14,127 bases of DNA from positions 1 through 14,127 of the IMG/VR virus record IMGVR_UViG_3300021399_000006; one strand, 5' to 3'. Positions 1 to 10,217 of this stretch are shown one piece after another. The number at the start of each line of letters is the position of its first letter. Within the stretch, counting starts at the first letter, position 1. The position numbers and the translations under genes are program-made. This DNA is from a virus. The notes under the pieces were generated by a model. The model made no database searches and was not told the origin of the DNA. It worked only from the letters and a program-made list of their open reading frames with translations.

Positions 1-138
1 CCCATTCACATCAGGGGCTTTAGGTCTCACTGTATGTAGCCGGATTCACCCTTCCTATCCCCCACTCATACAGGATGGTTGATCGTTTTTATACCGCATC
101 TCCATTCTACGGTCAACTGAGCATTTGGCTCAGTTCAA

Positions 139-220
139 GCCAGCAATAGGATTTGAACCTATATCGTATTAGGCCTTACACTCCTTGGGGGAGCCGCTTT
201 ACCAATTAAGCTATACTGAC
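139..220 (-). tRNA. tRNA-like, class II length (82 nt), irregular anticodon arm; possible pseudogene
   Basis: T-arm ATAGG-TTCAAAT-CCTAT (146-162). Acceptor GTCAGTA/TGCTGGC pairs 7/7 with two G.U. D-arm GCTT/AAGC. The anticodon stem only folds with a 5-nt loop (CCCAA). The long variable region is about 18 nt. Confidence 0.4.
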
Positions 221-231
221 ATTTTTTTAGC

Positions 232-302
232 AGGGCCGGCGGGGTTCGAACCCACAAATGCAGGAATCAAAATCCTGTGTCTTACCGTTTGACTACGGCC
301 CT
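232..302 (-). tRNA. tRNA-Gln (anticodon TTG)
   Basis: Full cloverleaf: acceptor AGGGCCG/CGGCCCT, D-stem GTC/GAC, anticodon stem CAGGA/TCCTG with loop TTTTGAT, T-arm GTGGG-TTCGAAC-CCCGC, discriminator G. Confidence 0.85.
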
Positions 303-2154: not shown

Positions 2155-2200
2155 AATAAACTCCTTTGAAACTTGATTAACGAAACATTTAACAATTAGC

Positions 2201-2224
2201 GGTGCGAGAGGGATTCGAACCCCC
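2201..2224 (-). ncRNA. T-arm plus 3' acceptor strand of a split/giant tRNA-like structure (see finding at 2201-2750)
   Basis: GGGGG-TTCGAAT-CCCTC followed by TCGCACC. There is no local anticodon or D arm. The matching 5' acceptor GGTGCGG lies about 545 nt upstream on the same strand. Confidence 0.45.
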
Positions 2225-2278
2225 AGCCCAATTAAGAGCAACGGTTTTGAAACGGTTTTAGAAGTTTTTAATAACCTC

Positions 2279-3021: not shown

Positions 3022-3032
3022 AAATAGGTAAC

Positions 3033-3104
3033 CACCCTTCTGGGATTCGAACCCAGGACTGTTGATTTAGAGTCAACTGACTTAGACCGCTTGTCGAAAG
3101 GGCG
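3033..3104 (-). tRNA. suppressor tRNA, anticodon CTA (reads UAG amber)
   Basis: Acceptor CGCCCTT/AAGGGTG (one G.U), U8 present, D-stem GAC/GTC, anticodon stem GTTGA/TCAAC with canonical 7-nt loop C-U-CUA-A-A, T-arm CTGGG-TTCGAAT-CCCAG, discriminator G. D-loop and discriminator are similar to the neighbouring tRNA-Gln. Confidence 0.8.
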
Positions 3105-4625: not shown

Positions 4626-4703
4626 ATAACAAGACATATAATTTGTAAATAATGACTGTTTACGAGACAGTTGTCTTAACCATTTGACTACATAAGCGAC
4701 AAT

Positions 4704-5532: not shown

Positions 5533-6179
5533 CAATTGAATAACTTAATTATATCTATGAATAACACCCCTTCGGGTTGCTGGCAATAACCTTCTCTTAT
5601 ATTCGACCACCAAGGAGACATACCTGAGCGGTTAGGAGCGACCTAAACGCTATATGCCCCATCTGTTCAAGACAGATAAATCTTGTAGAGGACTTTGCAT
5701 ACCTCTAACTTTCAGCTACCTTTCAGAAAATTTACATAATAACTTGTATAAGAAGTTATTCAAATTTTGTTGTCTACGCACTTTTAGCCTACTCGTACCT
5801 TGACCCAATCTTATACACGACTTCCGCCGCTTCATGTGCGCTAACCCCTTATGGAAATTCCAAGGTTTGCAAAGTTTTCCACGCTTCACCTAACTTGGAT
5901 TAGTGCTCTCGTTAAAGAACCCTATATTATGGAGTCGATTGGAACAGTGTCTTTAAGAGCGATTACCCCAGTGCTATTGACTAAACCATTTCTTTAGACC
6001 TGGCGTTTTATACGTCACCGCATAAAAACTTTTTTCCTAAGAAAGTATCCTTCCTTATTCTGGTTATTCGTAAAGCCAATACCTCAGCGTCATGGAATTG
6101 ACGTTTATCACTGAGTTGCTTCATAAATATAACTAAATTATTCAATTGTCAATGTTCTTTTGTTGATAATTCAACATAG

Positions 6180-6249
6180 ATCTCAAGTAGGGGTCGAACC
6201 TACATCTTACCTTTTTACCAGGCGCGCACTACCATTATGCTACTGAGAT
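6180..6249 (-). tRNA. tRNA-like gene with atypical anticodon loop GGUAAAA (possible anticodon TAA, G at position 33)
   Basis: Good acceptor ATCTCAG/TTGAGAT. U8-A9. D-stem GCAT/GTGC. T-arm GTAGG-TTCGACC-CCTAC. The anticodon stem pairs 4/5. Confidence 0.45.
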
Positions 6250-6910: not shown

Positions 6911-6990
6911 AGTCTCCTTTTATCTCTCTTATATTTTAAAAGAGCCAAAAAATAATGCTCTGAAAGAGGAAAGTATGATACGTATCAAGT

Positions 6991-7063
6991 AGCCCCTGGG
7001 GGAATTGAACCCACCATCTTGACCTTGAAAGGGTCATATCCTGTCCTTTTAGAAGAAGGAGCC
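6991..7063 (-). tRNA. tRNA-Glu (anticodon TTC)
   Basis: Anticodon stem TGACC/GGTCA with loop CTTTCAA. T-arm GTGGG-TTCAATT-CCCCC. Acceptor GGCTCCT/AGGGGCT (all paired including G.U). Confidence 0.85.
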
Positions 7064-9620: not shown

Positions 9621-9920
9621 TTATTTAGAAAAATAATATTTCCGCCAATATTTATAAAAATCTTTTAATGTAGGATAATCTTCTTGCCAAAGACTTCCAT
9701 TAGGGTCAGGATGAAAATATTCAAATTTAGCATCTTCCCATGTCCATCTACTAATATAATCATGTATATCGTAGGTTTCAAAGACTTTTTTATAAGCATT
9801 TCCATTAGGAAGAATAATTTTACTATGTCTTATTTTTTTATTTGCGTGTCTTTTGTTTCTTTTAGGAGTAGGCGTACGCCCATCTGTATAAACAGGATTC
9901 TTTTTATATGAACGTGACAT
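9621..9920 (-). CDS. hypothetical basic protein (99 aa)
   Basis: ORF; SD AAAGGAGAAAAAT-ATG; TAA stop. Confidence 0.65.
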   Translation of the reverse strand: MSRSYKKNPVYTDGRTPTPKRNKRHANKKIRHSKIILPNGNAYKKVFETYDIHDYISRWTWEDAKFEYFHPDPNGSLWQEDYPTLKDFYKYWRKYYFSK

Positions 9921-9936
9921 ATTTTTCTCCTTTAAT

Positions 9937-10007
9937 TGCGGGGATAGGATTCGAACCTACAATCACCGGGTCAAAAACCGGCCGCTTTACCGTTAGCGTA
10001 CCCCGCG
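9937..10007 (-). tRNA. unusual tRNA with an E. coli tRNA-fMet-like acceptor stem (CGCGGGG ... CCCCGCA-A, C1xA72) and an 8-nt anticodon loop UUUUUGAC (UUG or UUU reading; Gln-like D-loop)
   Basis: T-arm GTAGG-TTCGAAT-CCTAT. D-stem CGCT/AGCG perfect. The anticodon stem GCCGG/CCGGT closes an 8-nt loop. D-loop AACGGTAA and loop TTTTGAx resemble the tRNA-Gln at 232-302. Confidence 0.5.
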
Positions 10008-10143
10008 TACTTATCATACCATTTCACCTGTTTTGTGGCTAGCTATTCCACCCCACCGTGCTCATCACTATTATTTTAATCATTCCCTTGGTAATACTCT
10101 TTGATAAGTATAATACATATTTTGACGTCTTGTATGTATTAGT

Positions 10144-10217
10144 AGGGGACCTGGGACTCGAACCCAGGACACGCACCTTATAAGGATGCTGCTCTCACCT
10201 GACTGAGCTAGTCCCCT
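10144..10217 (-). tRNA. tRNA-Ile (anticodon TAT, reads AUA)
   Basis: Perfect acceptor AGGGGAC/GTCCCCT. D-stem GCTC/GAGC. Anticodon stem GCATC/GGTGC with loop CTTATAA. T-arm CTGGG-TTCGAGT-CCCAG. Confidence 0.8.

What the first reader, a model, noticed from the sequence alone, without database searches (positions are those of the whole stretch)
9937..10007. tRNA with an E. coli initiator-like acceptor stem (CGCGGGG / CCCCGCA-A, C1xA72) but an 8-nt anticodon loop UUUUUGAC
The acceptor stem is identical to bacterial tRNA-fMet including the diagnostic unpaired 1-72 position. The D- and anticodon-loop sequences resemble tRNA-Gln(UUG). The anticodon loop has one extra nucleotide (8 nt), the architecture of natural +1 frameshift-suppressor tRNAs. 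It could be a quadruplet (or shifty) decoder, a Gln isoacceptor with unusual processing, or a degenerate gene.
Basis: seen in the sequence. Interest (0 to 1): 0.55.

Follow-up and report, generated by a model that had tools for sequence, protein, structure and literature searches.

The report
Phage tRNA-Gln-like RNA, 8-base loop
A rumen phage carries a real, well-folded glutamine-tRNA look-alike whose anticodon loop has one extra base, but related phages change, shrink or delete that loop freely, so it is probably a tRNA-shaped RNA that no longer has to decode, not a dedicated four-base-codon reader.

Summary
A 72-nt tRNA lies at 9936-10007 on the minus strand (Rfam tRNA 50.8 bits; ARAGORN "tRNA-?(Lys|Gln)(tttg)"). 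Its acceptor stem, CGCGGGG/CCCCGCA-A, matches E. coli tRNAfMet, including C1xA72. Its anticodon loop is 8 nt, UUUUUGAC, on a 5-bp stem. The same sequence occurs in at least three independent assemblies, so it is not a sequencing error.

By descent it is a tRNA-Gln(UUG) derivative, not an initiator. Its best match among known phages is a tRNA-Gln(UUG), and ARAGORN calls some orthologues tRNA-Gln.

I recovered ten alleles of this slot from sister phages. All four stems are kept through compensatory changes (97% of cells paired). The loop is not kept:
- 8 nt in two alleles (UUUUUGAC, UUUCUGAC);
- 7 nt NUUUGAU in four;
- GACUGUC, with a swapped 33/37 pair, in one;
- a triloop or rebuilt hairpins in three.
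The gene is absent or replaced in other relatives. Neighbouring true tRNAs in the same loci show the opposite pattern: invariant loops and divergent stems.

Most likely it is a tRNA-shaped RNA made from its own promoter ahead of a small ORF and released from decoding. The loop matches the laboratory CAAA frameshift suppressor sufG in architecture, so a quadruplet reader remains possible but unlikely (about 0.1).

The parts
9936..10007 (-). tRNA-Gln-derived tRNA-like gene, 72 nt: CGCGGGG UA CGCU AACGGUAA AGCG GCCGG UUUUUGAC CCGGU GAUU GUAGG UUCGAAU CCUAU CCCCGCA A. No CCA is encoded.
   Evidence: ARAGORN; Rfam tRNA 50.8 bits; cloverleaf is the minimum-energy fold; identical in L016, L017 and L018.
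9970..9977 (-). 8-nt anticodon loop UUUUUGAC. It contains UUG preceded by UUU and followed by A, C.
   Evidence: Orthologues carry UUUCUGAC (L097), GUUUGAU or AUUUGAU, GACUGUC, or collapsed or rebuilt arms.
9965..9982 (-). Whole anticodon arm: 5-bp stem GCCGG/CCGGU, with an outer G.U pair directly abutting the D stem (no residue 26), enclosing the 8-nt loop.
   Evidence: All five stem pairs are kept in 9 alleles, two of them with changes on both sides.
10001..10007 (-). Acceptor stem 5' strand CGCGGGG. C1 is unpaired against A72 (9937). The 3' strand CCCCGCA is at 9937-9943 and the discriminator A at 9936.
   Evidence: Read from the sequence. Identical to the E. coli tRNAfMet acceptor stem. 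Pairs 4-69 and 5-68 covary among alleles.
10013..10041 (-). Promoter-like site TAGCCA-17-TATGAT with an upstream TG (extended -10). The -10 hexamer ends 5 nt before tRNA position 1. The block GGTATGATAAGTA is identical in every allele found.
   Evidence: Promoter scan; motif search across loci; alignments.
9927..9932 (-). Ribosome-binding site AAGGAG of the downstream ORF. It starts 4 nt after the tRNA discriminator base, and the junction is conserved in all relatives.
9621..9920 (-). ORF99: a conserved 99-aa protein with a basic N-terminus and unknown function, apparently co-transcribed with the tRNA-like RNA.
   Evidence: ORF list; 73 homologues; no Pfam or PHROG match; AlphaFold pLDDT 68 with no PDB fold match.
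10142..10217 (-). tRNA-Ile(UAU), the upstream neighbour. In relatives that lack the tRNA-like gene, this tRNA is joined directly to the ORF99 ribosome-binding site.
   Evidence: L006; L003.
230..302 (-). Canonical tRNA-Gln(UUG) of the same array, with the 7-nt loop UUUUGAU and A1-U72. It makes the target redundant for CAA decoding in this phage.
   Evidence: ARAGORN and Rfam 63.7 bits.

Best explanation
**What it is.** It is a paralogue of tRNA-Gln(UUG) in a large rumen phage's tRNA array. It has kept the tRNA shape but is no longer held to decoding.

**How it is probably made (inferred).** It appears to be transcribed from its own extended -10 promoter, which ends 5 nt upstream. It would form the 5' part of the transcript that also carries ORF99. 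Because it still has an intact acceptor stem, T arm and D arm, RNase P and RNase Z would be expected to cut it out like any tRNA. That cut would leave the ORF99 message starting 4 nt before its ribosome-binding site.

**What the 8-nt loop is.** It is a lineage-specific allele with one extra U 5' of the UUG, shared with one diverged sister allele. Other alleles of the same slot carry ordinary 7-nt UUG loops, closed hairpins or nothing.

**What it would do if charged (not shown).** By analogy with sufG it could read CAA and occasionally shift +1 at CAA-A. The comparative data say the phage does not depend on this.

**Status of each step.**
- Shown: the sequence, the fold, the Gln ancestry, stem covariation with loop hypervariability, and dispensability.
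- Inferred: transcription from that promoter, RNase P/Z processing, and lack of aminoacylation or decoding.
For: **1. Gln ancestry.** The best match in the phage collection is a tRNA-Gln(UUG). Orthologues L011-13 are called tRNA-Gln(ttg). The anticodon arm resembles E. coli tRNA-Gln1, CCGGU-UUUUGAU-ACCGG.

**2. Stems are under selection.** In 9 distinct alleles, 97.2% of stem cells pair. Five pairs change on both sides: 4-69 GC/AU, 5-68 GC/GU/AU, 10-25 CG/UA, and two anticodon-stem pairs. None of 500 shuffles reaches the observed pairing or covariation score, and slid registers give only 36-47% pairing.

**3. The loop is not under selection.** The ten alleles carry UUUUUGAC, UUUCUGAC, GUUUGAU, AUUUGAU (three alleles), GACUGUC, an AUU triloop, CCGGAUU in a new stem, and AGGUAA on a 6-bp stem. 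In L019, positions 33 and 37 are swapped from U/A to A/U and 32/38 is G-C. The predicted fold is a 7-bp helix with a triloop. That is a change expected of a hairpin, not of an anticodon loop.

**4. Control.** In the same loci, tRNA-Ile(UAU), Gly(UCC), Gly(GCC), Lys(UUU) and Lys(CUU) keep the same anticodon and 7-nt loop length, with at most one flanking-base change, while their anticodon stems are entirely different. This is the reverse pattern.

**5. Dispensable.**
- The gene is absent in L006, L003/4 and L009/10, where tRNA-Ile abuts the ribosome-binding site.
- It is replaced in L008/L014 and L094.
- It has a T-stem deletion in L001 (32.5 bits).
- The window has a canonical tRNA-Gln(UUG) at 230-302.

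**6. Conserved flanks.** The promoter block GGTATGATAAGTA and the junction between the tRNA 3' end and the ribosome-binding site are the same in all alleles.
Against: - The 8-nt loop persists in two alleles (window and L097) whose surrounding DNA is 91.6% identical. Their only loop difference, UUG versus CUG, keeps a glutamine anticodon. This hints at residual decoding selection in that clade.
- Seven of ten alleles still have UUG or CUG in the middle of the loop.
- This clade has canonical D and T loops and the highest tRNA scores in the family (49-51 bits).
- No expression, processing or charging data exist.
- Conservation of the anticodon stem is not required for RNase P or RNase Z recognition, so a pure processing role does not fully explain it.
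- ORF99 homologues in more distant phages often have no tRNA upstream. The tRNA-ORF99 coupling is therefore not obligatory.
Confidence: 0.5

Rival explanations
1. It is a working +1 frameshift or quadruplet-decoding tRNA of the sufG type. Charged with Gln (or Glu converted to Gln), its extended anticodon UUUG reads CAA-A. The phage uses this for programmed recoding or to disturb host translation.
For: The loop UU-UUUG-AC has the anticodon pattern reported for sufG, a tRNA-Gln reading CAAA (PMC9094753 citing O'Connor 2002). That paper reports that GlnRS still charges a quadruplet tRNA-Gln and that single insertions often suffice. The 8-nt loop is shared by window and L097, with U before the anticodon and A after it intact. 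It is identical in at least three samples. The phage already carries a CUA suppressor tRNA and looks TAG-recoded, so it does manipulate decoding.
Against: The loop is not conserved in sister phages, and the gene is often absent. The two 8-nt alleles differ at the wobble base, so they would read different quadruplets (CAAA versus CAGA). C1xA72 in this allele is, from textbook knowledge of initiator tRNA, unfavourable for EF-Tu. C10 and the missing residue 26 are atypical. No +1-split gene was seen in the sequence held. The apparent overlapping ORFs in L016 are TAG read-through calls, not frameshifts. CAA-A is not notable in window ORFs (1 of 9 CAA codons), but the numbers are too small to weigh.
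Confidence: 0.12
2. It is a working triplet-reading tRNA-Gln whose anticodon-loop flanks, and even loop size, diversify under pressure from a host anticodon nuclease that targets tRNA-Gln. This would follow the pattern proposed for other phage tRNAs.
For: A published model holds that phage tRNAs escape host tRNA nucleases through anticodon-loop changes (PMC10264068). Here the variation is concentrated in the loop while the body is conserved. A Gln anticodon (UUG or CUG) is retained in 7 of 10 alleles.
Against: Several alleles cannot decode: A33/U37 in L019, the triloop in L007, and loops without U33 in L005 and L020. The gene is repeatedly lost. Other tRNAs in the same arrays show no such loop variation. 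No nuclease is known for these hosts.
Confidence: 0.15
3. It is simply a decaying tRNA-Gln pseudogene with no function. The intact stems reflect recent origin and shared ancestry.
For: It is redundant with the canonical tRNA-Gln(UUG) at 230-302. There are indels in the anticodon arm, a T-stem deletion in L001, and complete loss in several relatives. Only about ten alleles are available and they are related, so covariation counts are inflated by shared descent (a caveat stated in the output).
Against: Every stem substitution seen among the alleles preserves pairing, including four or five double changes. Even the rebuilt anticodon arms of L005 and L020 form perfect new helices. The tRNA score of 50.8 bits is in the range of working tRNAs of the array. 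The promoter block is perfectly conserved.
Confidence: 0.2
4. It is an initiator-type tRNA, formylatable through C1xA72, G2-C71, C3-G70 and A73, that starts translation at a non-AUG codon such as CAA.
For: The acceptor stem and discriminator are identical to E. coli tRNAfMet. From the literature as I recall it, tRNAfMet with a CUA anticodon is charged with Gln and can initiate.
Against: There is no CAU anticodon. The D stem has G11-C24, not A11-U24. Only two G-C pairs adjoin the loop. Position 1 varies (C, A, U), and U1-A72 occurs in three alleles. The rest of the molecule is Gln-like.
Confidence: 0.02

Closest known systems
sufG, the laboratory frameshift-suppressor derivative of tRNA-Gln1(UUG) that reads CAAA (O'Connor 2002, as cited in PMC9094753)
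   Same: It has a tRNA-Gln(UUG) background. One extra nucleotide gives an 8-nt loop containing UUUG, and U precedes and A follows the anticodon.
   Different: sufG arose under selection in the laboratory from a canonical tRNA with proven suppression. This one is wild and unproven. It has C38, C10, no residue 26 and a C1xA72 end, and its sister alleles do not keep the loop. I could not read the original sufG paper, so the exact insertion site in sufG is not verified.
Canonical bacterial or phage tRNA-Gln(UUG), e.g. Erwinia phage UCB24 tRNA-Gln and E. coli tRNA-Gln1
   Same: The anticodon stem has a CCGG core. The loop has a U-run, UUG and A37. The T arm is GUAGGUUCGAAUCCUA and the D loop is AAnGGUAA. 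The 1-72 pair is weak.
   Different: The loop is 8 nt. The D-stem register is remodelled (C10-G, no residue 26) and the variable loop is 4 nt. The discriminator is A73 rather than G73, and C3-G70 replaces G3-C70.
Bacterial initiator tRNAfMet
   Same: Acceptor stem CGCGGGG/CCCCGCA, the C1xA72 mismatch and A73 are identical.
   Different: The anticodon, the 11-24 pair, the three-G-C anticodon stem, and the D and T arm sequences all differ. The identity of the acceptor stem is limited to this one allele.
tRNA-like stable RNAs inside phage tRNA clusters (phage T4 species 1 and 2 RNAs; from my own knowledge, not checked here), and tRNA pseudogenes in phage arrays
   Same: It is encoded within a phage tRNA array, is tRNA-shaped and presumably processed by the tRNA maturation enzymes, and has no evident decoding role.
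   Different: Here the descent from tRNA-Gln is traceable. The family shows a specific pattern of conserved cloverleaf with a free anticodon loop, and it sits between a dedicated promoter and a small ORF.

Membership tests
tRNA (Rfam RF00005 cloverleaf) | Score above the family's gathering threshold, with four-arm cloverleaf and canonical T loop and D loop | tested here: met
   50.8 bits against a threshold of 29. The minimum-energy fold is the cloverleaf. The T loop is UUCGAAU and the D loop has GG.
Canonical decoding tRNA-Gln | 7-nt anticodon loop with U33, a UUG or CUG anticodon and purine 37 | tested here: not met
   The loop is 8 nt, UUUUUGAC. UUG, a preceding U and a following A are present, but the loop size is wrong.
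Canonical decoding tRNA-Gln | Anticodon loop conserved among orthologues, as in true decoders | tested here: not met
   Ten alleles carry eight different loop forms. Control tRNAs in the same loci keep their loops.
Canonical decoding tRNA-Gln | Gln-type body: weak 1-72 pair, Gln-like D, anticodon and T arms | tested here: met
   1-72 is CxA, AxA or U-A in all alleles and never G-C. The best phage match is a tRNA-Gln(UUG).
Canonical decoding tRNA-Gln | Aminoacylation with Gln, directly or via Glu and amidotransferase | not testable with these tools
   This needs charging assays. The host is probably Bacillota, judging from homologues in MAGs.
Bacterial initiator tRNA | C1xA72 mismatch with G2-C71, C3-G70 and A73 | tested here: met
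Bacterial initiator tRNA | CAU anticodon | tested here: not met
   The loop UUUUUGAC contains no CAU.
Bacterial initiator tRNA | Three consecutive G-C pairs (29-41, 30-40, 31-39) and A11-U24 | tested here: not met
   The stem is GCCGG/CCGGU, with only two G-C pairs next to the loop. The D stem has G11-C24.
+1 frameshift-suppressor (quadruplet) tRNAs | 8-nt anticodon loop made by one extra base next to the anticodon of an otherwise normal tRNA | tested here: met
   It has one more nucleotide than the class-1 sister alleles L011, L001 and L019.
+1 frameshift-suppressor (quadruplet) tRNAs | Demonstrated +1 reading, or genes that require it | not testable with these tools
   Only about 14 kb of the roughly 125-kb genome is held. 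No +1-split gene was seen there.
tRNA pseudogene | Disrupted stems and a sub-threshold score | tested here: not met
   All stems are intact in this allele. 97% of cells pair across the alleles, with covariation. The score is 50.8 bits.
Non-decoding tRNA-like RNA or processing element | Cloverleaf conserved while the anticodon loop is free to vary | tested here: met
Non-decoding tRNA-like RNA or processing element | Cleavage by RNase P or RNase Z, with a transcript shared with the downstream ORF | not testable with these tools
   There is only a promoter-like site and a conserved junction between the tRNA 3' end and the ribosome-binding site.

The most novel reading that the evidence does not exclude
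The 8-nt-loop clade (this window plus L097) could be a naturally maintained, phage-encoded sufG-like tRNA-Gln. It would shift ribosomes +1 at CAA-A or CAG-A in a phage that already reassigns TAG. That would be a wild quadruplet or frameshift-promoting tRNA used in infection. A related possibility is that the whole family is a tRNA-shaped RNA whose anticodon hairpin diversifies in an arms race with host tRNA-targeting defences.
Probability: 0.1. Interest if true: 0.8.

Novelty: new variant of a known kind. Interest (0 to 1): 0.35.

Why it matters
tRNAs with expanded anticodon loops are known mainly as laboratory suppressors and engineering tools, and wild examples with a role are very rare. This allele reproduces the anticodon pattern reported for sufG (UUUG on a tRNA-Gln) and occurs in several rumen metagenomes, so it is a concrete candidate to test.

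The comparative result is the more solid finding. It shows a tRNA-Gln paralogue turning into a tRNA-shaped RNA whose stems are selected and whose anticodon loop is not. This warns against reading every four-base-anticodon call in phage arrays as recoding. It also gives a small, traceable example of a phage tRNA gene leaving translation while staying a structured RNA.

Tried and rejected
- **Exact-pattern scans of IMG/VR.** The scan for the anticodon arm found nothing. The scan for the 5' half found only the one relative already known.
- **blastn of the tRNA against E. coli genomes.** No hit at E <= 0.01. The query is too short for that database size.
- **ORF99 function.** No Pfam or PHROG family. 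The AlphaFold model is of low confidence (pLDDT 68). Foldseek against PDB found nothing. I drew no functional link to the tRNA.
- **Frameshift sites.** Overlapping ORF pairs in L016, L005 and L006 looked like 0/+1 pairs. They turned out to be gene calls reading through TAG, so I rejected them as frameshift evidence.
- **In-frame CAA-A counts in window ORFs.** 1 of 9. Too few to say anything.
- **The original sufG paper (PMC113831).** It is not held, so the sufG comparison rests on a secondary citation.
- **Rfam's alternative alignment** (7-nt loop UUUUUGA with position 31 deleted). I considered it and set it aside. ARAGORN, the minimum-energy fold, and the invariant G.U outer pair in all alleles (which neither supports nor contradicts it) all fit the 5-bp stem with an 8-nt loop.
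- **Initiator identity.** Rejected on three failed defining features.

Full report
**Setting.** The window is a phage tRNA array. ARAGORN finds 28 tRNA genes, all on the minus strand, and Rfam adds two more plus a ROOL RNA at 5545-6139. Related contigs are 120-133 kb and come from rumen or gut metagenomes. Homologues of the neighbouring protein occur in Bacillota MAGs, including Ruminococcus, Lachnospiraceae and Clostridia.

**The observation.** The tRNA runs 10007->9936 on the minus strand:

CGCGGGG UA CGCU AACGGUAA AGCG GCCGG UUUUUGAC CCGGU GAUU GUAGG UUCGAAU CCUAU CCCCGCA A.

- ARAGORN reports tRNA-?(Lys|Gln) with the four-base anticodon tttg, a 5-bp stem and an 8-nt loop.
- The minimum-energy and centroid folds are exactly that cloverleaf.
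- Rfam's tRNA model gives 50.8 bits. It aligns the arm as CCGG-, UUUUUGA, CCCGG, deleting position 31, with low posterior probability there.
- The ambiguity arises because the outer G.U pair of the anticodon stem abuts the D stem with no residue 26, and the variable loop has 4 nt. The extra loop base is thus offset elsewhere in the molecule.
- The acceptor stem and discriminator equal those of E. coli tRNAfMet. I verified that sequence against 5,426 E. coli genomes.
- The same 72 nt, with 150 nt of identical flank, occur on contigs from three separate samples: L016, L017 and L018. Six contigs carry the adjacent protein. L016 has different genes upstream.
- The 8-nt loop is therefore real and circulating, not an assembly error.

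**Ancestry.**
- The only hit in the phage collection is a canonical tRNA-Gln(UUG) of Erwinia phage UCB24. It has the arm ACCGG-UUUUGAU-CCGGU and the same T arm.
- E. coli tRNA-Gln1 has CCGGU-UUUUGAU-ACCGG.
- Orthologues L011-13 are called tRNA-Gln(ttg) by ARAGORN.
- The initiator resemblance is confined to the acceptor stem of this one allele. The anticodon, the 11-24 pair (G-C here) and the three-G-C rule all fail.
- Among alleles, position 1 is C, A or U opposite A72. U1-A72, the tRNA-Gln form, occurs in L097, L095 and L005.
- I read C1xA72 as a U-to-C change in a Gln-type weak terminal pair.

**Orthologues.** I traced the slot through the downstream 99-aa ORF (73 homologues) and through a promoter-to-RBS DNA pattern. 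Between tRNA-Ile(UAU) and the ORF99 ribosome-binding site, sister phages carry the following:

| Locus | Anticodon loop or arm | Other features |
|---|---|---|
| window, L016-18 | UUUUUGAC, 8 nt | C1xA72 |
| L097 | UUUCUGAC, 8 nt | U1-A72; surrounding DNA 91.6% identical to the window |
| L011-13 | GUUUGAU | called tRNA-Gln(ttg) |
| L001 | AUUUGAU | one-base T-stem deletion; 32.5 bits |
| L095, L096 | AUUUGAU | different D loop and T loop |
| L019 | GACUGUC | AxA at 1-72 |
| L007 | arm collapsed to GCCAAUUUGGGU | |
| L005 | rebuilt hairpin GCUGA-CCGGAUU-UCAGU | U1-A72 |
| L020 | rebuilt hairpin GCUGCC-AGGUAA-GGCAGU | |
| L006 | gene absent | tRNA-Ile joins the RBS directly |
| L003/4, L009/10 | gene absent | tRNA-Ile joins the RBS directly |
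| L008, L014 | replaced by a 165-nt tRNA-like RNA | |
| L094 | replaced by tRNA-Arg(CCG) | |

**Selection pattern.**
- On nine distinct alleles, the cloverleaf pairs in 97.2% of cells. Five pairs change on both sides. None of 500 shuffles reaches the observed pairing or covariation, and slid registers fall to 36-47%.
- Even the rebuilt arms form perfect helices.
- In L019, U33/A37 has become A33/U37 with G32-C38, which gives a predicted 7-bp helix with a triloop. That is a hairpin-type compensation and is not compatible with a working anticodon loop.
- The control runs the other way. Across the same loci, tRNA-Ile(UAU), Gly(UCC), Gly(GCC), Lys(UUU) and Lys(CUU) keep the same anticodon and 7-nt loop length. 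Their flanking loop bases change at most once. Their anticodon stems are replaced wholesale, with full complementarity.
- So in this slot the shape is selected and the anticodon loop is not.
- The window also has a normal tRNA-Gln(UUG) at 230-302.

**Flanks.**
- A promoter-like site, TAGCCA-17-TATGAT with an upstream TG, ends 5 nt before position 1.
- Its core GGTATGATAAGTA is identical in every allele.
- The junction is also conserved: discriminator, then TTAAAGGAG, then 7 nt, then ATG.
- No CCA is encoded.
- From established knowledge of tRNA maturation, RNase P and RNase Z would be expected to excise such an RNA and leave the ORF99 message. This step is inferred, not shown.
- ORF99 has no recognisable family or fold.

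**Mechanism and rivals.**
- My best reading (0.5) is a tRNA-Gln paralogue released from decoding but kept as a tRNA-shaped, promoter-proximal RNA. The 8-nt loop is a tolerated lineage-specific insertion.
- Against this, the 8-nt loop is shared by two diverged alleles. Their single loop difference, UUG versus CUG, keeps a Gln anticodon. This clade also has the best tRNA scores in the family.
- A sufG-like +1 or CAAA reader therefore stays open at about 0.12.
- A nuclease-evading triplet decoder (PMC10264068) is at about 0.15.
- A functionless pseudogene is at about 0.2.
- An initiator is at about 0.02.

**Comparison and novelty.**
- The anticodon pattern is that of sufG. Membership of that class cannot be claimed without functional data.
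- It is not a member of the initiator family.
- It fails the defining loop features of a canonical tRNA-Gln.
- It fits best as a new variant among non-canonical or tRNA-like genes of phage arrays.
- Interest is moderate. The allele is a ready test case for natural quadruplet decoding, but the comparative evidence points to an ordinary explanation.

Noticed in passing
L039, L041, L044, L045, L048 (about 1388-1461 in each; IMG/VR contigs from sample 3300045988 and others): A different tRNA with an 8-nt loop, AUCGCACU (ARAGORN 'cgca', Ala|Cys), lies about 40 nt upstream of distant ORF99 homologues. The loop is identical in five contigs, while the anticodon and acceptor stems differ in a compensated way. 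It scores 49 bits against the Rfam tRNA model. It looks like a better-conserved expanded-loop tRNA than the target.
   Followed up: partly
window 3032-3104 (-); L016, L005, L006 gene calls: The array carries an amber-suppressor tRNA (anticodon CUA, loop CUCUAAA). Public gene calls on sister contigs read through several TAG codons. The phage is therefore probably treated as TAG-recoded, possibly TAG=Gln. Gln codons are also rare in the window's ORFs (27 of 1,779).
   Followed up: partly
L003 ~940-1500, L004, L009 ~1990-2500, L010: tRNA-Ile(UAU) is split in its anticodon loop, after CUUAU, by a ~0.5-kb insertion that is almost entirely a PDDEXK_5 (endonuclease-like) ORF. The 3' half of the tRNA resumes just before the ORF99 ribosome-binding site. 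There is too little non-coding sequence for a standard group I intron.
   Followed up: partly
L008 731-895 and L014 332-500: In these relatives the same slot holds a 165-169-nt RNA. It has a tRNA acceptor stem, D arm and T arm, and a ~95-nt structured insert where the anticodon arm should be. Six pairs covary between the two copies. It scores 33-35 bits against Rfam tRNA.
   Followed up: partly
window 5545-6139 (-) and 6179-6249 (-): A ROOL RNA (276.7 bits) lies 40 nt downstream of a 71-nt tRNA-like gene that ARAGORN calls Leu(taa). That gene has the loop GGUAAAA (no U33) and no long variable arm. The same pairing of tRNA-like gene and ROOL occurs in L001 and L019.
   Followed up: no
window 138-220 (-), 4633-4697 (-), 6990-7063 (-): Other odd members of the array: a tRNA-Trp(CCA) of 83 nt with a 16-nt variable region and a 4-bp anticodon stem, and two tRNAs seen only by Rfam (33 and 43 bits) that ARAGORN does not call.
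   Followed up: no
window ~2200-2237 (-): A remnant of a tRNA 3' half (GGGGGTTCGAATCCCTCTCGCACCG) sits just upstream of the ribosome-binding site of the ORF that starts at 2154. This is another 'tRNA end, then RBS, then small ORF' arrangement.
   Followed up: no
window 9621-9920 (-) and 100+ loci (L021-L127): ORF99 belongs to a widespread family of ~100-aa proteins with the invariant start MSRSYK and a basic N-terminus. They occur in phages and MAG contigs of Bacillota. A tRNA gene often, but not always, ends 13-40 nt upstream. No known domain or fold was found.
   Followed up: partly
L001 6646-6719: The tRNA-Gly(GCC) of this relative has the loop UCGCCAA (C33 instead of U33), whereas all other copies have UUGCCAA.
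   Followed up: no
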